Source: Verrucomicrobiales bacterium (GTDB lineage: Bacteria; Verrucomicrobiota; Verrucomicrobiia; Limisphaerales; F1-12-MAGs170). Taken from it: a stretch of DNA of 58,500 bases. How positions within the stretch are numbered: position 1 is the first letter of the stretch; every line of letters begins with the position of its first letter. The translations under genes were made by a program, and so were the position numbers. The notes under the pieces are model-generated. The model was not told the origin of the DNA and ran no database searches. It worked only from the letters and a program-made list of their open reading frames with translations. Below are positions 630-35,297 of the stretch, piece after piece. The DNA lies in the NCBI GenBank assembly GCA_005777315.1, contig SXMN01000094.1, positions 1 to 58,500 on the forward strand, written 5' to 3'.

Positions 630-776
630 TCCAGATGGTTTATTTGCAACCTCTCGCAGGAAGCGGTTCGAGATTCATCAAGAGCATGGCACTGCGGCCT
701 CTGGTCGGAGAAGAAGTGTGATGGTGGAACCTATTGAGTTGTTCAAACGAACTTCCTCTTGTACGAGGTTTGGCCA

Positions 777-1442: not shown

Positions 1443-1521
1443 CTGATTAGACACAAAGCCATCGTTGACACTCCTTCGGTCCATGTTTACGTTCTCCCAG
1501 TTTTCAAAACCCAAAACGAAC

Positions 1522-2277: not shown

Positions 2278-2283
2278 ACACAC

Positions 2284-2475
2284 GTGCCAATCCCCATGCC
2301 GATGAAACATATCCGGCGAGTTAATGAGATGCTGACGGTGTTGTTTATTCTGGGAATGCTGGGAGCAACTGGTTGCTCGACGACCCGTGACACGGAAAAC
2401 GTCTCAGAGCGCCCATGGAATGCGCCCAAGAACTGGGAACATGGTCTTCCTACGGGTTTGATGGATGGTCGTTGA
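2284..2475 (+). CDS. Small lipoprotein
   Basis: Hydrophobic stretch ending in a lipobox-like ATGC, then RPWNAPKNWE; directly follows the upstream gene. Confidence 0.7.
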   Translation: MPIPMPMKHIRRVNEMLTVLFILGMLGATGCSTTRDTENVSERPWNAPKNWEHGLPTGLMDGR

Positions 2476-2541
2476 CACTAAATGACGCTGCGAGAGATGC
2501 ACTGAGGACACAGCGAACGCTGATTTCCTAACAGTTCGCTT

Positions 2542-4107: not shown

Positions 4108-4109
4108 TT

Positions 4110-4721
4110 TCAGGACGCACAGCGGCCAAACGTCAGCCATCGAGTGGGCGTCAATAACGTACTCATTAACACATCATGCGGTTCCGCCGGGACTGAACTT
4201 AGGAGTTGCTGATCAAAGGCTACTCCACACTTTATCCCGACAACGGATGCCAGCATCTGATCGTAAAACCCTCTTCCCCGCCCCAGCCGGTATCCGCGCT
4301 CATCGAAAGCTAGTCCAGGCACCAGCACCAAGTCCAGTTGGTTTAGCGGCATGACTTTCGCTGCAGGTGCAGGTTCCAGCACTCCAAACTGACCTGCAAC
4401 CAACTCAGATTGAGATGGCTCCACTAAAGCCGCCGAGTACGAGTATAAGTCTGCATCAAATCTGGGGAGGCAAACTAACTTGCCAGAAGTCACCCCTTTT
4501 TGAATTAGCGGCAGAATATCCACCTCGCCTTTCATGGGAACGTAAAGCATCACGCTTGACGCAGATTCCCAAGCGGACTTTGCCTGCAAGCTCGAACAGA
4601 CGTGATCGGAACCCCTCGCGGCAAGATCCGCAGACATCTCTGCTAGAATCTGCCGCATTTCGCGTCGCAAGTGCGATTTCGCTCCCTGCTCTGTAGTAGG
4701 ATGGCGGCAAGTCAGTTTCAA
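4110..4721 (-). CDS. 5-formyltetrahydrofolate cyclo-ligase
   Basis: DLVLVPGLAFDERGYRLGRGRGFYD and PAEPHD motifs; start uncertain (TTG overlapping the rarA stop chosen). Confidence 0.93.
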   Translation of the reverse strand: MKLTCRHPTTEQGAKSHLRREMRQILAEMSADLAARGSDHVCSSLQAKSAWESASSVMLYVPMKGEVDILPLIQKGVTSGKLVCLPRFDADLYSYSAALVEPSQSELVAGQFGVLEPAPAAKVMPLNQLDLVLVPGLAFDERGYRLGRGRGFYDQMLASVVGIKCGVAFDQQLLSSVPAEPHDVLMSTLLTPTRWLTFGRCAS

Positions 4722-6153: not shown

Positions 6154-6331
6154 ACCCCGCCGTAATGCCGTGTGTAAACAGTTCCTTTGAACTTGCTAAG
6201 AAACAGGTGGAACCGACTTGTCAGCTTTCGACTTCCAATCAAGGCCTGTCGTCCACCAGCTAAGTGAAGGTTCCGTCATCAGTAACTTTACGGTTCAAGG
6301 ACTTTGCTTCTTACCACGAACATGGCAGGGT
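6154..6331 (-). ncRNA. ssrS: 6S RNA
   Basis: About 178-nt non-coding rod. 5' ACCCUGCCAUGUUCGUG pairs with 3' CACGGCAUUACGGCGGGGU, and after a central bubble CCUUGAAC pairs with GUUCAAAGG. It is followed by a U-run and lies upstream of the 5-FTHF cyclo-ligase and rny, the established 6S context. Confidence 0.9.
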
Positions 6332-6641
6332 AAATTCAAAGTCAAATTTCTCAAAGACCAATTGTGAATTTGTGCGGACTGCCTTAACCGACCTTACCCC
6401 GCACTTTCTGCGCTTGAGAATCGTCCTTTGTCAGCACTCTCTCAAGGGAAAAAGTGTGAAAAAATTTAAGACAAGTTCTAATTCGCCGCAGATTATGCTT
6501 CACCACCGCACCCCGCGACAATCATGTCTTGAGCGATTAGCACTAACTTTGTCTCGAACCTTCTGACTCACGGTGTGTCCATGCCAATTCCTCGGCATTG
6601 TCGTTGTCGTGATGTCTGCTGAGTTCTGGCGGTTGGCAACA

Positions 6642-7676
6642 TCATTTTTTGTGGTGTTCCTCATAGTGGGAACGCAGCGGATCGCCGCCAAAATCTCTCT
6701 CCAAATCGCGCCAAACCGCATGAACGTGATTGGCATTGTTCTGAGTGTTATCATACTCGATAAGGAATGATGGTCCTTGGATTCGGTAGTAGTGTCCTTT
6801 TCCAGGCTCGATGGCACCGGCCCACGCGAAGCTGATTTTGGCCGGAGAAGTACTACGAATCTTCTTCAGATCCTGATCAGCAAGCTCACCCCGGTTTCGA
6901 AATACATACTCCTTGACCACATCCATGAGCATTTGTTTCTGATCCTTTGTCATTTTGCTCATCGCCAAACCAGATGGGCTTAGAACCCTGGCTTTCCGAT
7001 CCGCAGCGGTGATGATGTCGGCGGGGGCGACATTGGTGTAGATGGCGATGCTACGCTGAGTGTCGTCAAGAGAACGAACCAACTGACGTGCAAGATCTTC
7101 CTCACGGCTCAAAACGCGAAGTCCAGCTCGTTGTCCCTCTCGAACTTCTCCAGGATTCGTTCCCAAGAATGAAGGCGTCACCGCGATACTGGCGCCCTCG
7201 ACCAAGGTGAAGTTAAGAGCCAAGTGATGCCCTTCCCAACGCCATGCCCACGTATCCTTTGTGCTCGGTTTGCTGAAAATGCTTACGAAATAAAGTTCAG
7301 GGTCTCGGACGGGGCCTTTGCCTTGTTCAATCTCGGCCAGAATTTGTTCCAAGCTCATTATGGTGGAAGCCTTCATGAAGCCCCGCTGGCTCAAGGCGGT
7401 GTTGAGAAGCGCATGAGCCAGGTGTCGCTGGGCCGGTGTCATTTCCTTGAGGGGAAGTCCCTTTCTAGCGCGTGGAATGAAATGCCAGTTGAGGCGCTCG
7501 TCGTCCTTGAAGTCGAATATAGCCTTCGCTTTCTGCTCCGCCGTGAGGGCCGCGAGAAAATGTGTTGCGGCGGCGGTCATTTCCTCTGCGGGACCATGTG
7601 CACGGGCGGAGTCCGGCAGAAGAAAACAGGCGATGGCTAGAAAAAATGCGTATATGTGTGTGTGAACAGAATGCAT
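6642..7676 (-). CDS. DUF3500 family exported protein
   Basis: Signal peptide, ERLNWHFIP, WRWEGHHLALNF, HYYRIQGPSFLIEYDNTQNNANHVHAVWRD. Confidence 0.88.
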   Translation of the reverse strand: MHSVHTHIYAFFLAIACFLLPDSARAHGPAEEMTAAATHFLAALTAEQKAKAIFDFKDDERLNWHFIPRARKGLPLKEMTPAQRHLAHALLNTALSQRGFMKASTIMSLEQILAEIEQGKGPVRDPELYFVSIFSKPSTKDTWAWRWEGHHLALNFTLVEGASIAVTPSFLGTNPGEVREGQRAGLRVLSREEDLARQLVRSLDDTQRSIAIYTNVAPADIITAADRKARVLSPSGLAMSKMTKDQKQMLMDVVKEYVFRNRGELADQDLKKIRSTSPAKISFAWAGAIEPGKGHYYRIQGPSFLIEYDNTQNNANHVHAVWRDLERDFGGDPLRSHYEEHHKK

Positions 7677-7841
7677 GGGACGAAGTCAATTCAGTTACCA
7701 CCAAAAGGGCAACAGGAAAAAAACCACTGAAAAATTGAAGGAGAACAATTGAGAGGAACTTCAGCCTTGCGCCTTGGTGCAGGTGTGCGAGCGTTGATCA
7801 AACGTTTTGGAACCGACCCATCAATAAGAGGAGAGCATTGT

Positions 7842-8804
7842 GTGAGCTATCGAGAGTCCATCCCCAAAAACCCGCTTCACAAATACGGCCACTGGATCAG
7901 CCTCAGCTTCTGGCTGGCGCTGTTCGCCTGCATTGTGCTGACTAGTTTCTATACCGTGCCTGCGGATTCGGCGGCCATCGTGCAACGATTCGGGAAGTTT
8001 CTCCGCACCGAGGAGCCTGGCTTGCGTTTCAAGGCACCTTTCGGTGTGGATCAAATTACTCAGATTCCAATTCGCCGGCAGCTCAAGCTGGAGTTTGGCT
8101 TTGCAACGCCCGACGCATCCAACCCTTTCCAACACGGTCAGGATCCCGAAATGGAGAAAGCAATGGTCACGGGAGATCTCAATGAGGCCCAGGTGGAATG
8201 GATCGTTCAGTACCGCATCAATGATCCGAAGCTCTACCTTTTTGAGGTGCGAGACCCTGAAGAGACACTCCGCGCGGCATCGGAAGCGGTCATGCGTGAA
8301 GTGGTGGGTGATCGAACAGTGGACGAAGTGATTACCGTCGGAAGACAGGAAATTGAAAATGAATCCAAAGTTGTCCTGCAAAAAGTTGTTCAACAGTATC
8401 AACTGGGACTAAGCATTGACCTGGTGCAGTTGAAGAACGTGAACCCTCCGAAGCAGGTGCAGGCATCTTTCAACGAAGTAAATCAGTCGCAACAGGAGAA
8501 GCAACGTTCGATCAACATCGCCAGCGGCGAGTACAATAAAGTAGTCCCACGGGCCCGTGGCGAGGCGGCTCGTTTGCTGGCAGAGGCTCAGGGCTACTCA
8601 CAGAAGCGGATCAACGAGGCCGAAGGAGACGCGGCGCTTTTCAATGCCGTCTTTGCACAGTATCAGAAGTCCCCTGACGTGACCCGACAGCGCATCTACT
8701 TGGAGACGATGAGCGAGGTGCTCCCCAAAGTCAGTCGCAAGGTTATCGTCGACGACAAAGGCCAGCAAGTGCTGCCCCTATTGCAGCTCCATACCGGAAA
8801 GTAA
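7842..8804 (+). CDS. hflK: FtsH protease modulator HflK (SPFH)
   Basis: TM + SPFH domain, MVTGDLN, VNPPKQVQASFNEV, PDVTRQRIYLETM; GTG start after GAGGAG. Confidence 0.93.
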   Translation: MSYRESIPKNPLHKYGHWISLSFWLALFACIVLTSFYTVPADSAAIVQRFGKFLRTEEPGLRFKAPFGVDQITQIPIRRQLKLEFGFATPDASNPFQHGQDPEMEKAMVTGDLNEAQVEWIVQYRINDPKLYLFEVRDPEETLRAASEAVMREVVGDRTVDEVITVGRQEIENESKVVLQKVVQQYQLGLSIDLVQLKNVNPPKQVQASFNEVNQSQQEKQRSINIASGEYNKVVPRARGEAARLLAEAQGYSQKRINEAEGDAALFNAVFAQYQKSPDVTRQRIYLETMSEVLPKVSRKVIVDDKGQQVLPLLQLHTGK

Positions 8805-8810
8805 GATACC

Positions 8811-9797
8811 ATGAATCTCACGTCCATGCTCAGGTCTGTCGCCGTTGCAGTCACGGTTCTCGTGGTTCTCATCGTCGCCAACATATGTTTCTACACGATC
8901 TCTGAAACCGAGCAGGTAATTCTGACCCAGTTCGGCAAGACGATGGGCGCACCAATCAATGAATCAGGCATTCATTTCAAGTGGCCCTTCATCCAGACGG
9001 TGAACCGCATCGACAAACGCATCCTTGAGTGGGATGGCCGCCCGGGCGAAATGCCGACGCGAGATAAACTCTACATCATCGTAGATACCTTCGGGAGATG
9101 GCGCATCAGCGATCCGCTCCAATTCTTCACCCGGCTCCGGGACGAACGCAGCGCCCAATCCCGTCTGGATGACATCATTGGAAGCGAAGTTCGCAATGCC
9201 GTTGCCAAGCATGATCTCATCGAAATCGTGCGAACCGACAAGAATCGCACGCCGGCGGTAGATGTAACTCTTTCCGCTGATGCCGGCCAGATCAGCCGTT
9301 TCCTTCCAATCTCACTCGGCCGAACAGCCATCGAAGGGGAAGTCGTTAAGGCTGCCGCACCCAAGCTGAAAGATTTCGGGATTGAATTGATCGACGTGCG
9401 ATTCATGCGAGTCAATTACAACGTGGGTGTCAGCTCAAAGATCCATGAACGCATGACCAGCGAACGCCAGCAGATTGCCTCGCGTTTTCGATCTGAAGGC
9501 GAAGGCGAGGCAGCAAAGATTCTTGGCAATAAGGAACGGGATCTCCGGCAGATCGAGTCTGAGGCCTACAGGGAGATTCAAAAAATCCGTGGCGACGCAG
9601 ATGCCAAAGCGACCGAGATATATGCCCGCGCTTATGGAGGCAGTCCCGAGGCGGCTGAATTCCACCGCTTCCTCCGTACGATGGACGCATACAAGAAGAC
9701 CCTCGATAAGGACACGACCCTGCTGCTCTCCACGGACAGCGATATGTTTCGCTACCTAAAACAGCCTTTCATCACGAATCCTCCGAGTGTGAAGTAA
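8811..9797 (+). CDS. hflC: FtsH protease modulator HflC (SPFH)
   Basis: RMTSERQQIASRFRSEGEGEA, GDADAKATEIYARAY, SDMFRYLK; directly downstream of hflK. Confidence 0.93.
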   Translation: MNLTSMLRSVAVAVTVLVVLIVANICFYTISETEQVILTQFGKTMGAPINESGIHFKWPFIQTVNRIDKRILEWDGRPGEMPTRDKLYIIVDTFGRWRISDPLQFFTRLRDERSAQSRLDDIIGSEVRNAVAKHDLIEIVRTDKNRTPAVDVTLSADAGQISRFLPISLGRTAIEGEVVKAAAPKLKDFGIELIDVRFMRVNYNVGVSSKIHERMTSERQQIASRFRSEGEGEAAKILGNKERDLRQIESEAYREIQKIRGDADAKATEIYARAYGGSPEAAEFHRFLRTMDAYKKTLDKDTTLLLSTDSDMFRYLKQPFITNPPSVK

Positions 9798-10034
9798 TAA
9801 CGGATCATCGGCGTTGAGATATGTCAGTCGATTGCCTTCCGCTGCTCTTCTTTCAGTCGCGAGGGTTGGGACCGCTGAAAACAATACAAAAACAAGTGCG
9901 CCCAACAGCATGACATGTTGCGAAGGGATCATGTCTTAAAGCTAGAGCTGATTGATCCATTCGTGGAAGCTGGGAAAAGTTGAGGGTGGTCGATGCACAG
10001 CGTTTCGTCTCTATGGCAAGCTGCTCCACCGGCT

Positions 10035-11494: not shown

Positions 11495-12127
11495 ATGAAG
11501 ATTACCTTTGCATTGTTGATGTCCCTGATGTTCGCGATGGTGGCCGCACGCGCCGCCGACGCTGAGAAGAAAGATGACAAGAAAGCCGCTCCCGCCGCCG
11601 ACTCCCCTGCCCCGGCCGCGGTGAAGGAAGTGGCCGTCATCAAGACGACGGAAGGCGACATGGTCGTCGAGTTCTGGCCGGATGTGGCACCAAACACGGT
11701 TGATAATTTCAAGAAGCTCGCGCGAAAAGGATTCTATGACGGGACTGCGTTTCACCGAGTCATCAAGGGGTTCATGATCCAGGGCGGCGATCCGCTCACC
11801 AAGGATCCGACCAAGGAAAGCGCATGGGGCACCGGAGATCCAGGGTACAAGATCAAGGCGGAGTTTAACGAGAAATCCCACGTCCGCGGCGTCCTCTCGA
11901 TGGCACGTTCGCAGAACCCCGACTCAGCCGGGAGCCAGTTCTTCATCTGCCATGGCGATCCCAAGTTCCTCGACCGCCAGTACACGACGTTTGGCAAGTT
12001 GATCCAGGGGGATGATGTGCTCGAGAAGATCGCCACCACAAAGACTCATCCGCCGGATCGACCGGACAAGCGAATGGGCGTGGAGAGCATCAAGATTCTC
12101 CCGGCGGATTCCATAAAATCGAAATAA
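11495..12127 (+). CDS. Cyclophilin-type peptidyl-prolyl isomerase, exported
   Basis: Signal peptide MKITFALLMSLMFAMVAARA; FYDGTAFHRVIKGFMIQGGDP, SAGSQFFI. Confidence 0.95.
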   Translation: MKITFALLMSLMFAMVAARAADAEKKDDKKAAPAADSPAPAAVKEVAVIKTTEGDMVVEFWPDVAPNTVDNFKKLARKGFYDGTAFHRVIKGFMIQGGDPLTKDPTKESAWGTGDPGYKIKAEFNEKSHVRGVLSMARSQNPDSAGSQFFICHGDPKFLDRQYTTFGKLIQGDDVLEKIATTKTHPPDRPDKRMGVESIKILPADSIKSK

Positions 12128-23754: not shown

Positions 23755-25164
23755 GTGAGTGAATCGAACAAAGCGGACTTCGATGTTGCCATTATCGGAG
23801 GAGGCAGCGGTGGCTATGCCGCGGCAAGGACTTCGGCTTTGAATGGACTGAAGACGGCCGTCATTGAAGGAGGCGATGACGTCGGCGGGTTATGCATTCT
23901 TCGCGGCTGCATGCCGACCAAGGCTTTGCTTTACGCCACGGATGTCCTCCATCTTGCGCGCAACGCGGCGACATGGGGAGTTCAGACAGGGCAAGTGTCG
24001 TTCAATCTTGCGGCGATCATGGCGCGAAAAGACAGACTCATTCGCGAATTCGCCGATTATCGCCGCGGCCAGTTGACTTCAGGCAAGTTCGCTTTCTTTC
24101 GTGCGAATGCCCGTTTCGTGGATGCGCGCAAACTGGCGTTGAGCGATGGGACAGTTCTCAGCGCGGATCATTTCGTCATCAGCACCGGATCGATCACTGC
24201 CACTCCTCCCGTGCCTGGCATGGACACGACCGACTGCATCACCAGCGATGATGCGCTGAAGATGACGTCGCTTCCTCGATCGCTCGTCATCCTTGGAGGA
24301 GGCGCTGTTGCGATGGAATTTGCGCAATTCTTTGCGCGGTTGAACGTCGAAGTAACCCTGATTCAGCGGAGCCACCAGGTTCTGCGTGATTTCGATGAGG
24401 ATGCGGCGCGCGAAATCGAACATGTATTCGTGCGCGAGGGAATCACACTCCACCTTGGCACCCAGTTGAGGAATGTCGCCACCGACGGCGCTTCAAAAGT
24501 CGTTGAGTTCACCAAGGACGGCGCGCCAATTCGCGTTGTTGCGGACGAGATCTTCAACGGCCTCGGACGATCACCCAACACGGCGAAGCTGAACCTGGAA
24601 AACGCTGGCGTCTCAACCGAGCGCGGCCGGATTGTGACCAACAGCCACATGCGGACTTCGGCGCCTCACATCTATGCGGCGGGAGATTGTACCGGGCCGC
24701 ACGAGATCGTCCACATTGCGATCCAGCAAGGAGAAATCGCCGCGCACAATATCGCCCATCCCACGTCTCCTCGGAGCATTGATTATCGCTTGCTGACCAG
24801 CATCGTTTTCACGGATCCGCAAGTCGCCTCGGCAGGCTTGACTGAGAAGGAGGCGCGGAACAGGGGAATCCCCTATTTGACTGCAAAACATCGCTTCGAT
24901 GATCACGGCAAATCGCTCATCATGGAGGCTCGCGAAGGATTTGTGAAATTGCTCGCTGATCCGGTCAGCGGTGAGATCATTGGAGGCAGCATCGTCGGTC
25001 CGATGGGTGGTGAACTTCTTCACGAAATCATCGCCGCGATGAACAAACACACAACCGTTCACGAACTGGCTTCGATGCCTCATTATCATCCCACGCTCGC
25101 GGAGATCTGGACTTATCCGGCAGAAGAACTCGCGTCACAAATCAACAAGCCCGTTGCTCAATGA
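23755..25164 (+). CDS. Pyridine nucleotide-disulfide oxidoreductase (dihydrolipoamide dehydrogenase/mercuric reductase family)
   Basis: GGGSGG FAD loop, GGLCILRGCMPTK redox disulfide, IYAAGD, HPTLAE. Confidence 0.93.
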   Translation: MSESNKADFDVAIIGGGSGGYAAARTSALNGLKTAVIEGGDDVGGLCILRGCMPTKALLYATDVLHLARNAATWGVQTGQVSFNLAAIMARKDRLIREFADYRRGQLTSGKFAFFRANARFVDARKLALSDGTVLSADHFVISTGSITATPPVPGMDTTDCITSDDALKMTSLPRSLVILGGGAVAMEFAQFFARLNVEVTLIQRSHQVLRDFDEDAAREIEHVFVREGITLHLGTQLRNVATDGASKVVEFTKDGAPIRVVADEIFNGLGRSPNTAKLNLENAGVSTERGRIVTNSHMRTSAPHIYAAGDCTGPHEIVHIAIQQGEIAAHNIAHPTSPRSIDYRLLTSIVFTDPQVASAGLTEKEARNRGIPYLTAKHRFDDHGKSLIMEAREGFVKLLADPVSGEIIGGSIVGPMGGELLHEIIAAMNKHTTVHELASMPHYHPTLAEIWTYPAEELASQINKPVAQ

Positions 25165-25742
25165 AATTCTTCCCATTCCTTGTGTCCTGCGTCGCCGCCT
25201 CAGCGGCCTTGCTCACCGCCAGTTGCCGGACTACCGTCAGCCAGACTGCGACGTCAGAGCTCAAGGGTGCTCAACTCAACCCGAAGTCGGCGATGTACGT
25301 CGGCATTCCCGCCGACGCCCCAGGGAGGAAGGGGCCCGTTTTGAATTCCGGCCAAAAGGCGGCAGAGCTCATTCGCGATGCCTTCGGCAAATGTGCCCGC
25401 CAAGCATGGATTGGCCGCAGGATGGAAGTCTTCGATGATGCGCTTGAGACTGCGCGCAATATCCGGGCTCATTACCTGGTTTATCCAACCTTGATTCGAT
25501 GGGAAGACAGGGCAACCGAATGGAACGGCCTGCCCGACAAGGCGGAGATCAAGATTCAGATCGCCGACTGTGCCACTGGAGACATAATCCATTCATCGAT
25601 CTTGAAGGCCACCGGCCCCAACATGAGTTCCGGGGATGAAACCCCGGCAGAAATTCTCGTTGAGCCTGTTGCGAAATACGCTGCCTCCGTTTTCCAAAAG
25701 ACCCACACGCCCACGGCGCTTCCTAAATCGGCCTTCCCGTAA
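25161..25742 (+). CDS. Lipoprotein, DUF4823-like
   Basis: Lipobox TASC; YPTLIRWEDRATEWNGLPD motif. Confidence 0.75.
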   Translation: MKFFPFLVSCVAASAALLTASCRTTVSQTATSELKGAQLNPKSAMYVGIPADAPGRKGPVLNSGQKAAELIRDAFGKCARQAWIGRRMEVFDDALETARNIRAHYLVYPTLIRWEDRATEWNGLPDKAEIKIQIADCATGDIIHSSILKATGPNMSSGDETPAEILVEPVAKYAASVFQKTHTPTALPKSAFP

Positions 25743-25834
25743 AGGATCCTCAACAGTGTTTCAGGACTTTTCTCAAATGACATCACTGGCGATCATTGAG
25801 GAAATCGGTTCTCCGCTGTTTTCGGCTAGAGATG

Positions 25835-25893
25835 GACACCGCGCTCCAGCAGTACAGCTGGAAAGAAAGCACGAGACTATCGGCCCGTTCATG
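25835..25893 (+). repeat. Inter-module repeat, copy 1 (3' part)
   Basis: GACAC...TACAGCTGGAAAGAAAGCACGAGACTATCGGCCCGTTCATG aligns with the 3' end of the copy at 27151-27297. Confidence 0.75.
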
Positions 25894-25929
25894 TTTTCCA
25901 CCCCAGCCCCCTGGCATTGAGTCACGCGC

Positions 25930-26135
25930 TTACAAATCCGATTCCACCAGCCCGGCAATTTTCATCTGGTGTTTGAGCAGTCAATTTTCAACGGGCGATT
26001 GCCGTGAACCGGAATTACAATCCGTTCCTGATGACCTTCGTTGGTGAAAATGTGATGGCTGCCGTTGATACGTTTGAGAATCTAGCCGCGCTTTTGGATG
26101 ACGTGGATGAACTCTCTGCCGGAAACTTGTTTCAC
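25930..26135 (-). pseudogene. hicA: HicA toxin pseudogene
   Basis: Reads VKQVSGREFIHVIQKRG*ILKRINGSHHIF...IVIPVHGNRPLKI, then a frameshift to LLKHQMKIAGLVESDL*. The GSH motif is intact; TAG at 26082-26084. Confidence 0.85.
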
Positions 26136-26335
26136 ACCGTCAACTCCAACACTTCGTCGCTGGGATTGGTTTCCCTCGTCTCGTCACCGACAGAAAGTCA
26201 GAGGCCGATTGCTTCGTGTAGATTGGCTTTCGATTCGGCGAGGGTCTCGCCCTGCGTCAGGCAACCCGGCAACGCTCGAACTTCCGCCCAGTAACCGCCC
26301 TCTTCCGCCTTGTGAACAAAGGCTTTCAGCGTCAT
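26132..26335 (-). pseudogene. hicB: HicB antitoxin with premature stop
   Basis: MTLKAFVHKAEEGGYWAEVRALPGCLTQGETLAESKANLHEAIGL*LSVGDETRETNPSDEVLELTV*; internal TGA at 26198-26200; the final stop overlaps the hicA GTG (GTGA). Confidence 0.85.
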
Positions 26336-26341
26336 GGGATT

Positions 26342-26370
26342 TTTATGCGCCGAACTCGCCTGACTCTCAA
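26342..26370 (-). promoter_or_regulatory. Putative sigma70 promoter of hicBA (leaderless)
   Basis: TTGAGA-17 nt-CATAAA, 6 nt before the ATG. Confidence 0.45.
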
Positions 26371-26393
26371 GCCATGCGTTTTTGAGATTGGCT

Positions 26394-26480
26394 CTGACCT
26401 CCGTCTTCCGCTTTCTGCCTTCGGCCTTTGAAACCAGCGGGAGCACCGGCGGCGGATTGAAGGATGAGTGTGATCGGGAC
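26394..26480 (+). repeat. Heptamer tract plus inter-module repeat, copy 2 (5' part)
   Basis: CTGACCT CCGTCTT CCGCTTT CTGCCTT CGGCCTT, then TGAAACCAGCGGGAGCACCGGCGGCGGATTGAAGGATGAG. Confidence 0.8.
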
Positions 26481-26540
26481 AAGGCGCAGTCCGGCGTGGG
26501 ATCGCAGGCAAGTTCCGGAGGCGAGCGAAGTTCGGAACTG

Positions 26541-26801
26541 TTACGCAGCCAGCTCGCGTGAGCGGGGGAAGCGCCCGCACACCGCGTCGTCCACCCAGAT
26601 ATCCTCATCGAGTTCTTCCCATCGCAACGCCAACCCATGCAGCCTGAGCGTGACCTTTTCGAGTTGGGCCGGAGAGGCGTTGGCGAGCAAGGGGTACTTG
26701 CTTGCGGGGAAACTCACCTGACGTTGGTCAGCCAGTTCCAACCAGATGCGGCGATCCTGGACCCAACAACGCACGGCGGCAGTTTCTTTCTCAGTTTCCA
26801 T
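26541..26801 (-). CDS. DUF2442 family protein (putative antitoxin)
   Basis: IWLELADQRQVSFPASKYPLLANASPAQL...LRWEELDEDI; overlaps the DUF4160 gene end. Confidence 0.88.
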   Translation of the reverse strand: METEKETAAVRCWVQDRRIWLELADQRQVSFPASKYPLLANASPAQLEKVTLRLHGLALRWEELDEDIWVDDAVCGRFPRSRELAA

Positions 26802-27027
26802 GGCGCTCAATATAGGCGGCAATCAACGCTGAGCAATGCTCTTCCACGAGCCGCTGGATGCGGGTTAACTCAGCGCTCGCAAACCCGCGATTGGCCGCCA
26901 TTGCGACCGGGCGCAGCCAGAACTTGGCTTCCATGTCCTCGCGGGTCACGTGAATGTGCGGCGGCTCATTCCCCTCGCGGCTATAAAAGTGGAAGCGATA
27001 CGGGCCAATGCGCAACACGGTGGGCAT
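26791..27027 (-). CDS. DUF4160 family protein (putative toxin)
   Basis: MPTVLRIGPYRFHFYSREGNEPPHIHV...EAKFWL. Confidence 0.92.
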   Translation of the reverse strand: MPTVLRIGPYRFHFYSREGNEPPHIHVTREDMEAKFWLRPVAMAANRGFASAELTRIQRLVEEHCSALIAAYIERHGN

Positions 27028-27034
27028 GGCTTGA

Positions 27035-27063
27035 AGTGTGAGTAACGGATTTTCCAGTGTCAA
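27035..27063 (-). promoter_or_regulatory. Putative sigma70 promoter of DUF4160/DUF2442 (leaderless)
   Basis: TTGACA-17 nt-CACACT, 7 nt before the ATG. Confidence 0.55.
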
Positions 27064-27120
27064 CGCCCCCGCCGGAGCGCTGGCGGAGCGCGAAGCACGA
27101 TGTCTTGAGCAGTTTTCAAA

Positions 27121-27306
27121 TGACTTCCGACCTCTCGCCGCTGACTTCAGCCTTTGAAACCAGCGGGAGCGCTGGCGGTGGCTTGATGGCAGAGCGCGTC
27201 AGGGCTTGGCAGCAAACAGAGGAATTTCCGACTGCGGCTCGACACAGCATCGGCGATACAGTGGGAAACAAAGCACGAAACTATTGACCCGTTCATGACC
27301 CGTTCA
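27121..27306 (+). repeat. Heptamer tract plus inter-module repeat, copy 3 (full length)
   Basis: CCTTTGAAACCAGCGGGAG (27151)...AGCACGAAACTATTGAC (27288), ending in tandem TGACCCGTTCA x2. Confidence 0.85.
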
Positions 27307-27335
27307 CGGCGGTGGGCATCATGCCGCATTAACAC

Positions 27336-27364
27336 TTGCCGGTGCGTGACGGCAAATTTAGATT
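27336..27364 (+). promoter_or_regulatory. Putative sigma70 promoter of the addiction module (leaderless)
   Basis: TTGCCG-17 nt-TAGATT, 6 nt before the ATG. Confidence 0.55.
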
Positions 27365-27370
27365 CCAGCC

Positions 27371-27604
27371 ATGAGCAAAGCTAAGATTTTGCACGAATTG
27401 CCCAAGTTGGGATTGCAAGAGCGGCGCGAGATTTTTGAGCGCATCGGCGAACTGGAAGACCAGGACCTGCTCAAAGGCGGCGAACCCACGCCTGCGGACA
27501 AAGCGCTGCTTGACCGCGAATTGGAGGAATATCAGCGGAATCCTGATGCCGGTTCGACGTGGCCGGAAGTTGAATCCCGTCTCCGTAAACCAAGTCGCCC
27601 GTGA
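27371..27604 (+). CDS. Addiction module antidote protein
   Basis: LPKLGLQERREI...LLDRELEEYQRNPDAGSTWPEVESRL pattern; GTGA overlap with the toxin gene. Confidence 0.88.
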   Translation: MSKAKILHELPKLGLQERREIFERIGELEDQDLLKGGEPTPADKALLDRELEEYQRNPDAGSTWPEVESRLRKPSRP

Positions 27605-27894
27605 GTTGGCGGGTCATCATTCGGCCCAATGCCGAAGCAGACGCGCGCGAAGCCCGGCTATGGTATGAATCCCAGCGGACGGGATTGGGTGATGAACTGC
27701 TGGAGGAAATCCGGCACGCCATTCGTGTCCTGGAGGAACACCCGGACCGCCGCCCGATTTACTATCGCGGCTTTCGTCGTTTGCTCACCCGCCGTTTTCC
27801 CTACAAACTTTTCTACCGCATCGAAGGCGACCGCGTCGTTGTCTTTCGCATCCTGCACGCCAAACGGGATCATGAGTGGCAATTGGGCGATTGA
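27601..27894 (+). CDS. RelE/ParE family toxin
   Basis: AEADAREARLWYESQRTGLG, RRFPYKLFY, VVVFRILHAKR. Confidence 0.92.
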   Translation: MSWRVIIRPNAEADAREARLWYESQRTGLGDELLEEIRHAIRVLEEHPDRRPIYYRGFRRLLTRRFPYKLFYRIEGDRVVVFRILHAKRDHEWQLGD

Positions 27895-27966
27895 TTCGTC
27901 GCATCGGCGGACGATGCGGAGTCGCCGATGAACCCCGTAGGAGGCGAAGGCAACGAGGCTCAATAA

Positions 27967-28157
27967 TTTCTGCTTTCTGCTTTCTCTTTTTCGCTTTCTG
28001 CCTGCGGCCCTTGAAACCAGCGGGAGTACCGGCGACAACTTGGAAGTTGAGTGCATCAAGGCAATTCACCAAGCAGTGGAGATTTCGACCGCGGCTCAAC
28101 ACGCCGGCGGCGGTAAAGTCGGAACTTTAGCACGAAACTATTGACTGACCCGCTCAC
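27967..28157 (+). repeat. Heptamer tract plus inter-module repeat, copy 4 (full length)
   Basis: CTGCTTT heptamers, then CCCTTGAAACCAGCGGGAG (28008)...AGCACGAAACTATTGAC (28145) TGACCCGCTCAC; ungapped alignment with copy 3. Confidence 0.85.
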
Positions 28158-28188
28158 GAGGATTTTGGAGTGCGGAATTCCGCGCCCT

Positions 28189-28300
28189 CCGACCTCTGAC
28201 TTCTGCCCTCTGGCCTTCAACCTTTCATCCTCCGCAGAACTATTTTGGAGAACGGCCTGCCTGCCGCTTTCAGCCTTCGGCCTTTGAAATACCAGGAGTG
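28189..28300 (+). repeat. Heptamer tracts plus truncated repeat start, copy 5
   Basis: CCGACCT CTGACTT CTGCCCT..., then CCGCTTT CAGCCTT CGGCCTT TGAAA. Confidence 0.65.
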
Positions 28301-28330
28301 TTCGCTGAGAGTTTTGAAATCCTTTCCACA

Positions 28331-29614
28331 TCACTTTTGGTAAATGACTTCTTTGACCACATCACAGAACGCGCCGTCTTCAGCATCGTCGGCATGCTCG
28401 ACAATATAGGTAGGCTTTCCGTTTGTGAATTTGGCGGTTCCGCAGAATGCGAAGCTGGCTCTGATTGATTTCATCGTCACGAGTTCGGAAAAACCTGGTT
28501 GCCGAATGCGTAGATCACGCGTGGCAAGCAATTCCGTCATCCGCATTTCCACATGTTGGCCCCACGCGTCGGTAGTGTGAGACTTTTGATCCATGTCTTT
28601 CAATCCTACTGCGATTGCGTAAGGCTCCACTCCATGCATCCTTCCGACCCGATGATAGTATTCGCAACGGCCAGTAAATTTCTCGTCCAATAAGCACTTC
28701 AAAAAGACTTCGGTGACTTCCGTCTGATACGCGTCAACTCGAGTCGTCAGCTCGAAACACAATGCGTAACCATACTGCTCATTTGTCATTCGCTTCGGGC
28801 ACAAGGTCCATCCCTCGTCGTCGTCAGGCTCGTCCCACTCTTCCAATTCGTCTATGAATGATGGATCAAACTTCTCCCGAACCAGCCGAGCCATAATGGT
28901 TCCGTAACGTTGGAGGTAGTAATGCCACGCAACAGAGTGTTTGCTTCTTACTTCCGGGTCACGATCCTGCGCCATTGTCATGTACATCTTCTCCAAGATT
29001 TTAATCTCTCGTTTCAGCAGCAGAGCATCTGAGCCAGGAATTCGATCGAAATCCACATGAGGAACACCCTCCCAACTCAATTCGGCTAATTGGGAAATCT
29101 GAGGTGCCAACAAGACAAACTGGAGGTCTTGACTGTGGAAGACGGTTTCAAACGTTGAGTTCAGAGATAAGAGACGGGAATCCAAGAAAGTGCCAACCGA
29201 CTTGATCTGCTTTTCGCGACGATACACCTCAATCAAACCAGCACCGTAGAAGCAAGACGATTTGCCCAACTCGAAATGCTCGAATTCCCCTTGCGTAATC
29301 ACCGCTCGAAAGAATACGTCGATTGCTGAAAGGCGGTAAAACAAGTCCTGGCAGAACTCGCACAAGAACATGACAATGAATCCTTGGTTTTCCCCATCAA
29401 GTTGGCATGCGTTGTACACGACAATCGTATCCGAGAATACGATCGTTCGGAAGTCGCCGTGCTTCTGCATATTCGCAGTCGCAACAATGTGGTAGAGGGC
29501 CGGAATGACTTCTGGCCTTTTCCGAACCAGGGCAGAGAATCCCAAAATGTCGATGTAGAGCAGATATTTGGAATGGCTTTGAACTCTGTGCTTTGGCAAT
29601 TTGACTTCACTCAT
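28331..29614 (-). CDS. Class III nucleotide cyclase-like protein with unknown C-terminal domain
   Basis: YLLYIDILGFS, IVFSDTIVV, FRAVITQG and YGAGLIEVYRRE occur in the order and spacing of the adenylate/guanylate cyclase fold; ORF is solid, function inferred. Confidence 0.65.
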   Translation of the reverse strand: MSEVKLPKHRVQSHSKYLLYIDILGFSALVRKRPEVIPALYHIVATANMQKHGDFRTIVFSDTIVVYNACQLDGENQGFIVMFLCEFCQDLFYRLSAIDVFFRAVITQGEFEHFELGKSSCFYGAGLIEVYRREKQIKSVGTFLDSRLLSLNSTFETVFHSQDLQFVLLAPQISQLAELSWEGVPHVDFDRIPGSDALLLKREIKILEKMYMTMAQDRDPEVRSKHSVAWHYYLQRYGTIMARLVREKFDPSFIDELEEWDEPDDDEGWTLCPKRMTNEQYGYALCFELTTRVDAYQTEVTEVFLKCLLDEKFTGRCEYYHRVGRMHGVEPYAIAVGLKDMDQKSHTTDAWGQHVEMRMTELLATRDLRIRQPGFSELVTMKSIRASFAFCGTAKFTNGKPTYIVEHADDAEDGAFCDVVKEVIYQK

Positions 29615-29689
29615 GGTGACGGGCTTACACAACCCAAAGTCGGCGAGCAAGTCTATGGGGGCTCGTGAACTCTTTCATTTTCCGCCAGC

Positions 29690-30361
29690 ATGAACCCGCG
29701 CGACGATTCTGCGATCATTCGGCACCCGACAGGTGGGGTCGCCAAAGTCAAACAGGGCACAAAGCGAATCTTGTCCGATCTGGTCAGGGATATTCTCTCG
29801 ATTGCGCAGGAAAAATCTCAGACTCAAAGTCTGCCGGCAACTTCATCACATACCGACGCTGATTTGGAAAGCTGGTACTGGAAGGGAGAGGCACACTACT
29901 ATGGCACCGGTGTGCCAAAAGATTACGTTGAAGCTGTGAAGTGCTACCGCAACGCAGCGGAACGGGGGCATGCGCACGCGCAGTTCAGGTTGGGGGTGTG
30001 CTATTCAGGAGGTGAAGGCGTTCTGCAGGATCACGCACAAGCCGTCAACTGGTATCGCAAGGCAGCAGAGCAAGGTTACGCCGACGCTCAGAACAACTTG
30101 GGCCACTGCTACTACGACGGGTGCGACGGTGTTCCCGTAGATAAGGAAGAAGGCCTGCGATGGCTAAGCAAATCGGCCGAGAATGGTTGTGTACTAGCTT
30201 GTATCACATTGGACACTTTTTGGAAATCGGGCCTAATCGATTCAAAAGATCATGAAAAAGTTTTGCATTGGCTCCGTAGAGCAATCGAGAAGGGAGATTC
30301 AATCGCTGTTGCCTTTTATCCGGAATTAAAAGCAAACCTTTCAGAGCTGCCACCCAAATGA
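29690..30361 (+). CDS. Sel1-like repeat protein
   Basis: Three clear SLRs (GTGVPKDYVEAVKCYRNAAERGHAHAQFRLG; GVLQDHAQAVNWYRKAAEQGYADAQNNLG; GVPVDKEEGLRWLSKSAENG). Confidence 0.92.
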   Translation: MNPRDDSAIIRHPTGGVAKVKQGTKRILSDLVRDILSIAQEKSQTQSLPATSSHTDADLESWYWKGEAHYYGTGVPKDYVEAVKCYRNAAERGHAHAQFRLGVCYSGGEGVLQDHAQAVNWYRKAAEQGYADAQNNLGHCYYDGCDGVPVDKEEGLRWLSKSAENGCVLACITLDTFWKSGLIDSKDHEKVLHWLRRAIEKGDSIAVAFYPELKANLSELPPK

Positions 30362-32013
30362 ACAAAGCGAGCTGGATTCTTTTGGACACGGAAACGACCG
30401 GGTTCTCCGCGCCGATTTTCGTCGTTGAGTTGTGCGCACAACGGATGCGCGGCTGGCAGCCTGACGGCGAACCATTCCGCAAGTTGCTGAATCAAAATCA
30501 GGAGATTCCCGCCGAGGCTTCGCGCGTTCACGGTTACACGCGTGAAATTCTGGAGCGCGACGGCGAACCGGCGCATCAGGTTTATCGGGAGTTTGCCGAA
30601 TACGCGGGCGGGCTGCCGCTCGTCTCGTTCAATCTCGAATATGACCTGGACGAAGTGTTGCAGCCGGAGTGGAAGCGGCTGGGCATCGGCGCGATTGGCA
30701 GTCGCGGGTTTTGCGCCCTGCGGCTGGCGCAGCGGCTGCTCGATCCCGTGCCCGCTGGCAACTGCAAGCTGCAAACGCTGCGGCAGTATTATCGCCTGCC
30801 CGAACGCGGCGCGCACACGGCGCTGGGCGACGTGCAAACGGTCGCGGACTTGATGGCGCAGGTGCTTCGCCCGATTGCCGGGCATCGCGGGTTAGATACG
30901 TGGGAAAAGCTGGTCGCGTTTGCGGCGGAAGAATGGTTTCCGTCCCGCATCGCTTTCGGGAAGCACAAGGGACGGTTGATTCAAGAGGCCCGCAAGGACG
31001 CGGAGTTGCGCGGCTGGCTGGACTGGCTGGCCAAATCCGCCAACGCCCGCAACGCGAAGATGGGTCGCTGGTATTTGCGACAACTGGAAATGGCATCCGC
31101 GCCACCGGACACAACGGTGTTTGCCGCGCCGGAAATCGAGCGCGAATCCAAACGCGGCGTCGCAACGCAAACCGGCCACGTCGGGCTGGTCATTTACATC
31201 AATCCAGAGTTGGAGCAATTGCGGCAGTTGGTGGCGGGCGCACGGGCGCGGCTGGCGGAATTGGGAGTCAATTTCACGAAGGAGAAATCACGCGTGGATG
31301 TCATGCAGGCGGTGTTGTTCCGGCAATTGCGCGGGCATTATCAGCAGCGCGACCGGCTGCGGCTCATCGTGGACTACCGGCGGAAGTTTTTGGATTCGCT
31401 GGTGCGCGGCGGCGAGGAGGATGCGAAACAGGCGGAAGCGAATTACGAGCAGGCGAAATCGCAGACTGACAAGGATTACGAGGAGACGGCGGCAGCGGTG
31501 GCGGAGAAGAAACAACTCACCGCCGACGAGGAGGCGGAACTGTCGCGGCTGTGGAAGAAGCTGGTGAAGTTGTATCACCCCGACCGCTTCGCGCACGAGC
31601 CGGACAAGCTCGAGACGTATCACAAGCTGACCGCCGCCATCAACGAGGCGAAGGACGCGGGCGACATCCAGACGCTGCGGGAGATCGCGGAAGACCCGCA
31701 CGGTTTCATCCTGCGCCAGGGCTGGGCGACGCTCGATTTCAGCGACGCGGCGGAACTCGCGCAGTTGCGGCGTCTGCATGAGACGTTGCAACTGGAAATC
31801 ATCGCCGTGCTCGAAGCGCTGAATCGCCTGCGGGAAAGTCCCGATTACGAGCTTTGCCAGTTGAGCGAAAAGAAACCGGGCTTGCTGGATGAACTGGCGG
31901 CGAAAAGAAAGCAACTGCTGGAAAAGGAAAGCAGGGAGTTGGAGGAACAGGCGGACAAGCTGGCGGAGGAAATCAAGGAATTATCCGACGAGGAAACTTC
32001 GCGGATTCTTTAG
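30358..32013 (+). CDS. DEDDh 3'-5' exonuclease fused to coiled coil and J-domain
   Basis: LDTETTG, FNLEYD and AHTALGDV exonuclease motifs; IAFGKHKG motif; WKKLVKLYHPDRF J-domain HPD; ATGA overlap with the Sel1 gene. Confidence 0.9.
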   Translation: MNKASWILLDTETTGFSAPIFVVELCAQRMRGWQPDGEPFRKLLNQNQEIPAEASRVHGYTREILERDGEPAHQVYREFAEYAGGLPLVSFNLEYDLDEVLQPEWKRLGIGAIGSRGFCALRLAQRLLDPVPAGNCKLQTLRQYYRLPERGAHTALGDVQTVADLMAQVLRPIAGHRGLDTWEKLVAFAAEEWFPSRIAFGKHKGRLIQEARKDAELRGWLDWLAKSANARNAKMGRWYLRQLEMASAPPDTTVFAAPEIERESKRGVATQTGHVGLVIYINPELEQLRQLVAGARARLAELGVNFTKEKSRVDVMQAVLFRQLRGHYQQRDRLRLIVDYRRKFLDSLVRGGEEDAKQAEANYEQAKSQTDKDYEETAAAVAEKKQLTADEEAELSRLWKKLVKLYHPDRFAHEPDKLETYHKLTAAINEAKDAGDIQTLREIAEDPHGFILRQGWATLDFSDAAELAQLRRLHETLQLEIIAVLEALNRLRESPDYELCQLSEKKPGLLDELAAKRKQLLEKESRELEEQADKLAEEIKELSDEETSRIL

Positions 32014-32149
32014 CCGTAACGATTCGATAGGAGCGTAGAGTTCATTCCGCCGCAACGCGCGACCACTGCTAGAAACAAGGGCTGGAATTGAGAGTCTGCT
32101 GGCAACATGTGGCGTTGATCCGGACTGATAGCGTTACACATGGTTCAAA

Positions 32150-35115: not shown

Positions 35116-35297
35116 ATGTGTTAAGTGGGGCGAACCTAGTTTTGCGACCGCAGAGTGTCAATCGCTTATTGAGGGTTCGCTCAACGACCCAACGGCAAAA
35201 ATGCAACGGTGAACCAGTTCAGCCCACGGGTCTTCTCTCAGTGATCCAAAGGTTTGCTTTGTAATATCTGGCGGCTGGATTTAACGATGATAATAAT

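What the first reader, a model, noticed from the sequence alone, without database searches (positions are those of the whole stretch)
25835..28300. Cassette-like array of toxin-antitoxin modules delimited by an unrecognised ~140-bp repeat
Seen: every small module here is separated from the next by the same co-oriented non-coding sequence. The order is: 3' part (25835), hicBA, 5' part (26425), DUF4160/DUF2442, full copy (27151-27288), antidote/RelE, full copy (28008-28145), stub (28281), cyclase-like gene. The two full copies align without gaps over 138 bp (about 99 identities by my hand count). Their ends are near-invariant (TTGAAACCAGCGGGAG; AGCACGAAACTATTGAC) and their middles variable. Modules point in either orientation and carry their own promoters. 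The repeat lacks attC boxes and no recombinase is adjacent. Inference: an integron-analogous gene capture array using a different site and a trans-acting enzyme, or a non-autonomous element that ferries TA/defence cargo.
Basis: partly seen in the sequence, partly recalled or inferred. Interest (0 to 1): 0.8.

Follow-up and report, generated by a model that had tools for sequence, protein, structure and literature searches.

The report
Repeat-bounded toxin-antitoxin cassette array, not integron
A rare, strictly one-directional DNA repeat with an invariant core of about 31 bases marks the joints between small toxin-antitoxin and defence gene modules in some Verrucomicrobia, and looks like a gene-swapping site distinct from integron sites, although the enzyme that would use it was not found.

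Summary
The window holds four co-oriented copies plus a stub, and the two best copies share 99 of 138 bases. The only other copy in this genome lies between two more toxin-antitoxin (TA) modules.

The 140-bp form is a minority variant. The universal unit is a pyrimidine-rich tract followed by an invariant ~31-nt core (GCCTTTGAAACCAGCGGGAGCACCGGCGGCA).

The core occurs in 18 of 401 genomes of the order, at 1-6 copies each. All 22 arrays seen are co-oriented and spaced about 1 kb apart. TA families fill 17 of 41 downstream intervals.

Sequences to the left and right of the core assort independently between genomes.

The whole 6.4-kb island is absent from the same-genus genome.

It is not an integron attC. 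It has no hairpin, and the genome's real integron has canonical attC sites elsewhere. No Rfam match, RNA structure or protein parent was found.

Best reading (about 0.4): a sequence-specific att-like joint, with arrays built by accretion of recombinase-less cassettes. No recombinase and no excised circle were shown.

The parts
25730..32148 (.). Variable island holding the TA array, a 439-aa gene, the Sel1 gene and the Exo-DnaJ gene. It is absent from the same-genus genome.
   Evidence: window 22346-25729 matches G001 positions 1-3384, and window 32149-33300 matches G001 3448-4599; a contig of run X4 joins 25720 to 32149.
25759..25923 (+). Copy c1 (leftmost). It has a left motif and a type-A right module but lacks about 46 nt, including most of the core.
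   Evidence: nhmmer E 6e-28; alignments.
25931..26150 (-). hicA-like toxin pseudogene with an in-frame stop and a frameshift.
   Evidence: Translation shows stops; reading. Homologous cassette in L158 at 84%.
26198..26338 (-). HicB-like antitoxin, 46 aa.
   Evidence: Pfam UPF0150 at 6.7e-7 and HicB_lk_antitox at 7e-4.
26374..26575 (+). Copy c2. The core is identical to the consensus, with a type-B 3' half. Its end overlaps the 3' end of DUF2442.
   Evidence: nhmmer E 1e-34; exact 25-mer core at 26428-26452; 85% identical as a unit with its cassette to L097/L155.
26541..26801 (-). DUF2442 gene, one half of a two-gene TA-like module.
   Evidence: Pfam PF10387 at 1.2e-13.
26791..27027 (-). DUF4160 gene, the other half of the same module.
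   Evidence: Pfam PF13711 at 1.6e-17.
27064..27105 (+). Degenerate, internally deleted mini-copy: a core-like 19-mer fused to a right-end-like 18-mer.
   Evidence: the repeat finder family D5; reading of the alignment.
27096..27323 (+). Copy c3, full type-A form: left motif, pyrimidine tract, core, right module and two TGACCCGTTCA units.
   Evidence: nhmmer E 1e-61.
27371..27604 (+). Antitoxin-like gene, 77 aa, addiction-module component.
   Evidence: NCBIfam TIGR02574 at 1.8e-6, below its cut-off.
27601..27894 (+). ParE/RelE-family toxin.
   Evidence: Pfam ParE_toxin at 3.8e-11.
27952..28169 (+). Copy c4, full type-A form, followed by no gene (an empty slot).
   Evidence: nhmmer E 3e-56.
28256..28290 (+). 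Stub (rightmost): pyrimidine tract plus only the left half of the core (GCCTTTGAAA).
   Evidence: the repeat finder family D3 at 93%; BLAST at 88-91% to other copies; nhmmer E 0.34.
28331..29650 (-). 439-aa gene of unknown family, carried as island cargo.
   Evidence: No Pfam, NCBIfam or PADLOC hit. Only 2 distant homologues in 60 relatives.
29690..30361 (+). Sel1-repeat gene whose end overlaps the start of the next gene.
   Evidence: Pfam Sel1 at 8.8e-34.
30358..32013 (+). DEDDh exonuclease + J-domain gene (Exo-DnaJ). It is horizontally mobile and lies downstream of repeat arrays in several genomes.
   Evidence: Pfam RNase_T and DnaJ; PADLOC DEDDh and PDC-S48; 78-90% nucleotide identity across families.

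Best explanation
The repeat is a sequence-specific, att-like recombination joint. Its working part is an invariant, unstructured core of about 31 nt (GCCTTTGAAACCAGCGGGAGCACCGGCGGCA). The core is always preceded by a pyrimidine-rich tract. It is usually followed by a semi-conserved arm. In the window's type-A copies that arm ends in tandem 11-nt TGACCCGTTCA units, which could be arm-type protein-binding sites.

Small promoter-bearing TA and defence modules that lack any recombinase are joined at this core, one after another and in one direction. This resembles tandem accretion of decayed integrative elements (CIMEs), or integron cassettes. The recombinase would be encoded elsewhere and would read the site by sequence, not by a folded hairpin.

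**Shown:**
- the anatomy of the unit
- its rarity
- strict co-orientation
- enrichment for TA cargo
- independent assortment of left and right flanks at the core
- an island that is present or absent between close relatives
- distinctness from the genome's own attC sites

**Inferred:** that exchange is site-specific, that a trans-acting enzyme exists, and that the 11-mers bind protein.
For: 1. **Constraint on the core.** In 56 aligned copies from many genomes, columns 3-33 are invariant or at least 90% conserved, while flanks are variable. About 9 copies become unrelated immediately after ...GGCGGCA, so the right edge is sharp. Cassettes shared between genomes are only about 85% identical and their non-coding surroundings cannot be aligned. 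The core is therefore held by selection, not by recent spread.

2. **Flanks assort independently at the core.**
- Same right side, different left context: L025/L047, L022/L075/L088, L024/L068 and window c2/L097.
- Same left side (hicA end plus about 40 nt), different right side: C294 versus L058.

3. **Polarity.** All 22 arrays (31 adjacent pairs) are co-oriented. The 60 nt upstream average 0.68 pyrimidine against 0.44 downstream.

4. **Cargo.** 17 of 41 downstream intervals outside the window carry TA families, plus one CBASS cyclase and one HNH gene. In the window, 3 of 5 intervals do. Genes lie in either orientation, as the TA cassettes of integrons are reported to do (recalled from general knowledge, not checked here).

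5. **Rare, patchy and low-copy.**
- 18 of 401 genomes and 15 of 166 genera, at 1-6 copies each; the reversed-pattern control gave 2 hits.
- 20 loci in 241 million metagenome records.
- 2 loci in this genome.

6. **Variable content at the same flank.** L155 has three cassettes where L158 has hicBA plus one copy. G001 and run X4 have an empty site. Contigs of X4 show other cassette orders.

7. **Terminal copies are half-sites.** In the window, the leftmost copy lacks the left half of the core and the rightmost keeps only that left half. attL-like and attR-like ends would look this way.
Against: - No recombinase or transposase lies next to any array on contigs up to 278 kb (Pfam). The 4-12 tyrosine recombinases per positive genome are all on other contigs.
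- The core shows no clear dyad symmetry of the kind tyrosine-recombinase core sites have (my reading).
- The sequence between a cassette's last functional element and the next core is not shared between genomes that carry the same cassette (L075 versus L088). A simple circular-cassette model predicts it would be shared, unless that DNA is neutral and turns over.
- The hicBA module is inverted relative to the repeat in L158 compared with the window. One-way site-specific insertion does not explain this.
- Arrays are short (2-4 copies). No circle or empty core-only attB site was found.
- Type-A arms with the 11-mers are in only 6 of 68 copies.
Confidence: 0.4

Rival explanations
1. Insulator or spacer element used as a homology patch. 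The pyrimidine-rich tract plus core has a host or cassette function, for example Rho-dependent termination or insulation of read-through on the + strand. Cassettes are swapped by ordinary RecA-dependent recombination between neighbouring copies after DNA uptake. No dedicated enzyme is involved.
For: No recombinase is found near any array. Strict co-orientation is also what homologous exchange needs. The upstream tract is C/T-rich and G-poor, 0.68 pyrimidine, and unstructured, which is like a rut site by general knowledge. REP-like hairpin arms, typical of gene ends, adjoin many copies (REPl 13 of 64, REPr 6 of 64).
Against: Only about 31-45 nt are well conserved, which is at the lower limit for RecA exchange. 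A sharp conservation edge right after ...GGCGGCA in about 9 of 56 copies fits a defined site better than a homology patch. About half of the downstream modules face the core with their 3' ends, so one-way insulation would often serve nothing. No RNA data could be had.
Confidence: 0.25
2. Non-autonomous transposable element. Either the repeat itself is a MITE-like insert that lands next to TA modules, or each 'core + module' is a one-ended mobile unit moved by a transposase encoded elsewhere (HUH, rolling-circle or RNA-guided type) that targets REP-like hairpins.
For: Shared units begin at the core and carry the module with them. Cores sit inside or just after REP-like hairpin arms, a target favoured by some IS families (recalled, not tested). 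A long asymmetric invariant sequence would suit a transposon end or an RNA-guided target.
Against: There are no terminal inverted repeats, no subterminal hairpins conserved across copies and no target-site duplications. No copy is linked to a transposase in this genome or on array contigs. Copies are not dispersed: 2 loci in 5.66 Mb. They are never in opposite orientation (31 of 31 pairs), which random insertion would not give.
Confidence: 0.12
3. Structured non-coding RNA, for example a regulatory or antitoxin-like RNA repeated beside each module.
For: Strand-specific conservation. A few apparent compensatory changes in a stem between the 3' half of the core and downstream sequence (c3, L047, L024; reading).
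Against: No Rfam match at E up to 1. Single-copy folds have z-scores between -0.58 and +0.26 on both strands. RNAalifold on 36 copies gives only a trivial 5-pair hairpin. The candidate stem is no longer than in shuffled controls, 5.65 against 5.41 pairs in 55 copies. The most conserved part varies too little to show covariation.
Confidence: 0.05
4. Ordinary integron cassette array (CALIN) with diverged attC sites.
For: Array layout, TA cargo in both orientations, and the genome does encode an integron integrase.
Against: The genome's real integron (contig C66) has canonical sites, GCCTAAC...GTTAGGC, that fold at -46 to -56 kcal/mol. A profile of those sites finds further attC sites on six other contigs and next to intI in G025 and G004. 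It finds none in the window, on C294 or in any array locus. The repeat has no hairpin and no R''/R' boxes (reading).
Confidence: 0.03
5. Relics of local duplication, or of a decayed gene whose tail was copied with each module.
For: Copies c3, c4 and L105 keep one frame open that ends at the same TGA (reading).
Against: The 76-aa ORF has no homologue among near-length or longer proteins. Other copies carry stops in that frame (C294, L050, L076). Amino-acid identity is no higher than nucleotide identity predicts. The element is conserved across families with unrelated neighbours.
Confidence: 0.05

Closest known systems
Integron cassette arrays and CALINs (attC clusters without integrase; Cury et al. 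2016, PMC4889954, seen as search listing and abstract only)
   Same: Co-oriented short sites punctuate one- or two-gene promoter-bearing modules. TA cargo lies in either orientation. Content varies between genomes. No enzyme is adjacent.
   Different: The site here is conserved in sequence, not in structure, with no hairpin and no R/L boxes. It is distinct from this genome's own canonical attC sites and from intI. Arrays are short (2-4). Extra non-shared DNA lies between a module and the next site.
Tandem accretion of integrative elements and CIMEs (cis-mobilizable elements that keep attL/attR but lost integrase; Guedon et al. 2017, PMC5704250, passages read)
   Same: Recombinase-less units are bounded by direct att repeats and stacked in one orientation at one site. 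The whole composite island may move. Terminal copies look like half-sites.
   Different: Units here are only about 1 kb, a single TA module. The site is not in a tRNA or other conserved gene. No cognate integrase or conjugative partner was identified.
Tycheposon islands of Prochlorococcus (bioRxiv 10.1101/2020.12.28.424599, passages read)
   Same: Repeated integrations at one attachment site push older elements inward and leave scattered att remnants between cargo modules.
   Different: There the att remnants are partial tRNAs and integrase-bearing elements are found. Here neither is seen.
pdif modules of Acinetobacter plasmids
   Same: Small TA or resistance modules are bounded by short recombination sites and need no dedicated recombinase in cis.
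   Different: pdif sites are 28-bp dyad-symmetric Xer sites in alternating orientation. The core here is asymmetric and always co-oriented.

Membership tests
Integron attC / CALIN | Imperfect palindrome (R''-L''...L'-R') that folds as a single-strand hairpin. | tested here: not met
   Fold z-scores are -0.58 to +0.26 on both strands. There is no consensus structure in 36 copies. There is no excess stem over shuffles. Control attC sites of the same genome fold at -46 to -56 kcal/mol.
Integron attC / CALIN | Similarity to the lineage's attC family, or adjacency to intI or to other attC sites. | tested here: not met
   A profile of the attC sites on C66 finds sites on other contigs of G000 and next to intI in G025 and G004. 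It finds none in the window, on C294 or in any array locus. intI is on contig C66.
Integron attC / CALIN | Score above threshold with IntegronFinder's attC covariance model. | not testable with these tools
CIME / tandem accretion of integrative elements | Units bounded by direct repeats that share an identical core, with left and right arms reassorting at it. | tested here: met
CIME / tandem accretion of integrative elements | A cognate site-specific recombinase, in cis or on a related element in the same genome. | tested here: inconclusive
   None lies within the array contigs. Each positive genome has 4-12 tyrosine recombinases elsewhere, and none could be tied to the site.
CIME / tandem accretion of integrative elements | Attachment site inside a conserved host gene, typically a tRNA 3' end. 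| tested here: not met
   No Rfam or tRNA match over the repeats. The core is present in only 18 of 401 genomes. The three other 13-mer matches in G000 are chance hits inside coding sequence.
MITE / non-autonomous transposon | Terminal inverted repeats, target-site duplication and dispersed copies in both orientations. | tested here: not met
   No inverted-repeat pair bounds the unit. There are 2 loci in the genome. All 31 adjacent pairs are co-oriented.
Known RNA families (Rfam 15) | Match to a curated covariance model. | tested here: not met
   0 matches at E up to 1 over 24000-31000.

The most novel reading that the evidence does not exclude
A second kind of gene-cassette system besides integrons. 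It would have a sequence-read 31-nt joint rather than a folded site, and would be specialised for toxin-antitoxin and defence modules. It would be served by a still unidentified trans-acting recombinase, or by a host enzyme. It travels with a horizontally mobile exonuclease/J-domain defence-candidate gene across families of Verrucomicrobiota.
Probability: 0.3. Interest if true: 0.8.

Novelty: new variant of a known kind. Interest (0 to 1): 0.62.

Why it matters
If the core is a true recombination site, it is a cassette-capture system that attC-based tools such as IntegronFinder would not be expected to detect. It would help explain how TA and defence modules are shuffled in a large, mostly uncultured phylum.

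The invariant 31-mer gives a direct handle for further work:
- bait for DNA-protein pull-down
- probe for excision circles
- seed for mining more arrays

Even if exchange turns out to be homologous, the element is a strongly constrained, uncatalogued boundary signal between selfish modules. Its function is open.

Tried and rejected
- **Rfam.** The scan of 24000-31000 gave nothing at E up to 1.
- **Folding.** Single-sequence folds, alifold and a stem-versus-shuffle test showed no structure. The second half of the script crashed, so only the mean comparison stands.
- **Protein parent.** The ORF over c3 has none among near-length or longer proteins. Other frames were not searched.
- **Plasmids, phages and viral contigs.** These gave no match except a 77-nt Sel1-like hit.
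- **Expression.** No RNA holder is listed, so expression is untested.
- **Laid contigs.** The 25720 to 32149 joint has 75 letters on its shorter side, and I take it as real. The other joints have shorter sides of 27-36 letters at 85% likeness and may come from other organisms. These are 27041 to 27353, 26458 to 25912 and 27869 to 26405. I use them only as hints.
- **Extra 13-mer core matches in G000.** The matches on C271, C325 and C349 lie inside coding sequence and are chance.
- **Exact 17-mer hits in public genomes.** 50 of 73 lacked any strong match to the repeat profile: 47 had no match at E 0.01, and L048, L052 and L094 matched only weakly. I take these as chance.
- **Promoter readings of the core** (sigma-70, sigma-54, ECF) were considered by eye and dropped for lack of matching boxes.
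- **dif/Xer-like reading** was dropped for lack of dyad symmetry, judged by eye only.
- **The 439-aa gene** was searched for an unoccupied site beside a homologue. Only two distant homologues turned up.
- **Earlier scan notes.** No look-alike sequence was found.
- **Not done:** genome-by-genome association of the core with intI or any recombinase subfamily across the 401 genomes.
Full report
**1. Observation**

The two full copies, 27151-27288 and 28008-28145, share 99 of 138 positions without gaps. Twenty thousand random 138-mer pairs from the window averaged 35 identities and never exceeded 59.

A profile of the copies was searched over the whole assembly in which the window lies (5.66 Mb, 367 contigs, 82% complete). 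It finds four copies in the window:
- c1, 25759-25923
- c2, 26374-26575
- c3, 27096-27323
- c4, 27952-28169

It finds one more copy on contig C294 and nothing else better than E 0.009. The stub at 28256-28290 is too short to score alone (E 0.34), but it matches other copies at 88-91% over 31-33 nt.

The C294 copy also sits between TA genes: a hicA-like remnant on one side and an AbrB/PIN (vapBC) pair on the other.

**2. Genes in the window**

| Module | Genes |
|---|---|
| hic | HicB-like antitoxin; hicA broken by an in-frame stop and a frameshift |
| DUF pair | DUF2442 / DUF4160 |
| ParE pair | TIGR02574-like antitoxin with a ParE toxin |

Downstream lie a 439-aa gene of no known family, a Sel1-repeat gene and a DEDDh exonuclease/J-domain gene, called Exo-DnaJ here.

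**3. Anatomy across genomes**

BLAST, pattern and profile searches recovered the element in other families of the same order, in public Verrucomicrobiota MAGs and in metagenome contigs.

Aligning 56 copies shows an invariant or near-invariant block, CGGCCTTTGAAACCAGCGGGAGCACCGGCGGCA (alignment columns 3-33). About nine copies become unrelated immediately after it.

Among 68 distinct cores:

| Feature | Count |
|---|---|
| Common extension GCTTGAAGGCGGA follows the core | 48 of 68 |
| Window's long type-A right module (...AAAGCACGAAACTATTGAC plus TGACCCGTTCA units) | 6 of 68 |
| Second right module, type B, as in c2 | 11 of 68 |
| AGTTTTTGAAAG-like motif within 200 nt upstream | 24 of 64 |
| Same motif downstream | 1 of 68 |
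| Pyrimidine fraction, 60 nt upstream versus downstream | 0.68 versus 0.44 |

The general unit is a polar one: a pyrimidine tract followed by the core.

Genome G004 carries a sister family. It has the same right module but a different left end and an optional hairpin insert.

**4. Distribution**

- The 25-mer core, allowing up to 3 mismatches, occurs in 18 of 401 sampled genomes of the order and in 15 of 166 genera. Each has 1-6 copies. The reversed-pattern control gave 2 hits.
- The exact 25-mer occurs in only 20 loci of the metagenome collection and in no viral contig.
- The island has no match in the plasmid or phage collections apart from a 77-nt Sel1-like hit.
- Every array seen is co-oriented: 22 arrays with 31 adjacent pairs, usually 0.8-1.1 kb apart.
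- Some arrays may be the same organism sampled twice, so these are not all independent.

**5. Cargo**

I took the interval downstream of each copy in 23 non-window loci, giving 41 intervals. Of these, 17 hold at least one ORF matching a TA family:
- ParD
- HigB/HigA
- VapC/PIN
- RelE/ParE with its antidote
- TIGR02574
- HEPN with MntA
- DUF4160/DUF2442
- an XRE/HipB-like antitoxin
- AbrB with VapC

One interval holds a CBASS cyclase and one an HNH gene. The remaining 22 have no TA or defence match: 20 have no family match at all, and the other two hold a Sel1-repeat gene and a GloVer-repeat gene. Several hits are the same cassette in different genomes. There is no formal background test. About half of the modules face away from the core.

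**6. Behaviour as a joint**

Cassettes shared between genomes start at the core and run to the module's promoter:
- Window 26413-27067 matches L097 at 85%.
- The ParD-type cassette is shared by L075 and L088.

In these pairs, and in L025/L047 and L024/L068, the sequence to the left of the core differs. Conversely, C294 and L058 share the left side (the end of hicA plus about 40 nt) but differ to the right.

At about 85% identity in coding DNA, neutral DNA is beyond alignment. An identical core in such pairs therefore indicates selection.

Two results fit a simple circular-cassette model poorly:
- The DNA between a module and the next core is not shared.
- hicBA is inverted relative to the repeat in L158.

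**7. The island**

The same-genus genome G001 is collinear up to window position 25729 and again from 32149. Only 63 nt lie between these points, and there is no repeat copy. A contig from an independent study (run X4) shows the same joint. So 6.4 kb, comprising the array, the 439-aa gene, Sel1 and Exo-DnaJ, is present or absent as a block.

Exo-DnaJ is 78-90% identical in nucleotides in genomes of other families. The gene, or 3' fragments of it fused to other N-termini, lies 1-4 kb downstream of the repeats in 9 of 25 loci examined: the window, L024, L171, L022, L027, L151, L158, L156 and L157. Many of the other loci are contigs that end too soon to tell.

L155 and L158 share a left flank but differ in cassettes.

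**8. Not an integron**

The genome does have an integron. intI lies on contig C66 (385.6 bits against a cut-off of 265), followed by canonical attC sites (GCCTAAC...GTTAGGC) that fold strongly.

A profile of those sites finds more on six other contigs, and next to intI in G025 and G004. It finds none in the window, on C294 or in any array locus.

The repeat itself shows no structure:
- no fold beyond shuffles
- no consensus structure
- no excess stem
- no Rfam match

**9. Enzyme**

Pfam scans of the array surroundings found no recombinase or transposase. Five positive genomes each have 4-12 tyrosine recombinases, all on other contigs. The nearest one in the window is 27 kb away. I could not tie any of them to the site.

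**10. Reading**

The facts are best explained by a sequence-specific recombination joint: an invariant asymmetric core with sharp edges, strict polarity, flank reassortment at the core, promoter-bearing selfish cargo, patchy low-copy distribution, and half-sites at the two ends of the window's array. Arrays would be built by accretion of recombinase-less units. The closest described analogues are CIME accretion (PMC5704250, passages read) and att remnants in tycheposon islands (bioRxiv 10.1101/2020.12.28.424599, passages read).

I put this at about 0.4.

Homologous exchange between copies of an insulator-like element is the main rival, at 0.25. The others rank lower:
- a one-ended or MITE-like transposon: 0.12
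- an RNA: 0.05
- a gene relic: 0.05
- a true attC: 0.03

**11. Literature**

Four full-text searches found no description of this repeat or of a non-attC TA cassette array in Verrucomicrobia. That covers only the open-access library searched.

Earlier notes of this scan describe other junction repeats in Verrucomicrobia. None shares sequence with this one.

Noticed in passing
window 30358-32013; L151 6342-7951, L160 296-1925, L024 14350-15982, L171 7052-8668, L172 927-2554: The exonuclease/J-domain gene is 78-90% identical in nucleotides across genomes placed in different families, so it is horizontally mobile. Homology stops at its stop codon, and the upstream partner gene varies (Sel1, LRR, others). 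It matches the PADLOC defence candidate PDC-S48.
   Followed up: partly
L173 6620-7300, L174 2933-4300, L158 10804-11643, L022 13285-14108: The 3' half of that gene (coiled coil plus J domain) recurs at 79-90% nucleotide identity fused to, or placed after, unrelated N-terminal parts. Its neighbours include NurA/HerA, a SacI-type restriction-modification pair and Sel1. The gene looks modular, with the front part being swapped.
   Followed up: partly
G000 contig C66 17389-21668 (L120): The same genome has a canonical integron: intI plus at least three strong and several weaker attC sites of about 100 nt. Further attC sites of the same family lie on six other contigs.
   Followed up: partly
L151 about 6200-6340, L158 about 11620-11760, L027 about 9700-9800; half-copies left of many cores, e.g. 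window 27935-27962: A REP-like long hairpin (GTAGGAG..GAGGCTC / GAGCCTCC..CTCCTAC) with a C/T-rich loop follows genes in these genomes. The cores often sit inside its loop or just after its right arm.
   Followed up: partly
L005, L016, L019, L026, L029 (genome G004): A sister repeat family shares the right module and the TGACCCGTTCA units but has another left end (GGTAAAACCGCCGCGGC). It also has an optional hairpin insert of about 60 nt.
   Followed up: no
window 35187-35244 versus G001 (L109 reverse strand 6589-9000): There is a second indel between the two same-genus genomes: about 2.4 kb present in G001 and absent from the window.
   Followed up: no
window 55315-56481: A 388-aa ORF with a weak tyrosine-recombinase match lies 27 kb from the array. 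No repeat copy lies near it.
   Followed up: no
L057, L068, L069, L072, L076, L079, L088, L097-L099, L105; L058, L086: Contigs filed under Bifidobacteriaceae and Akkermansia MAGs carry these Verrucomicrobia-type arrays. This suggests mis-binning or mislabelling of those contigs.
   Followed up: no
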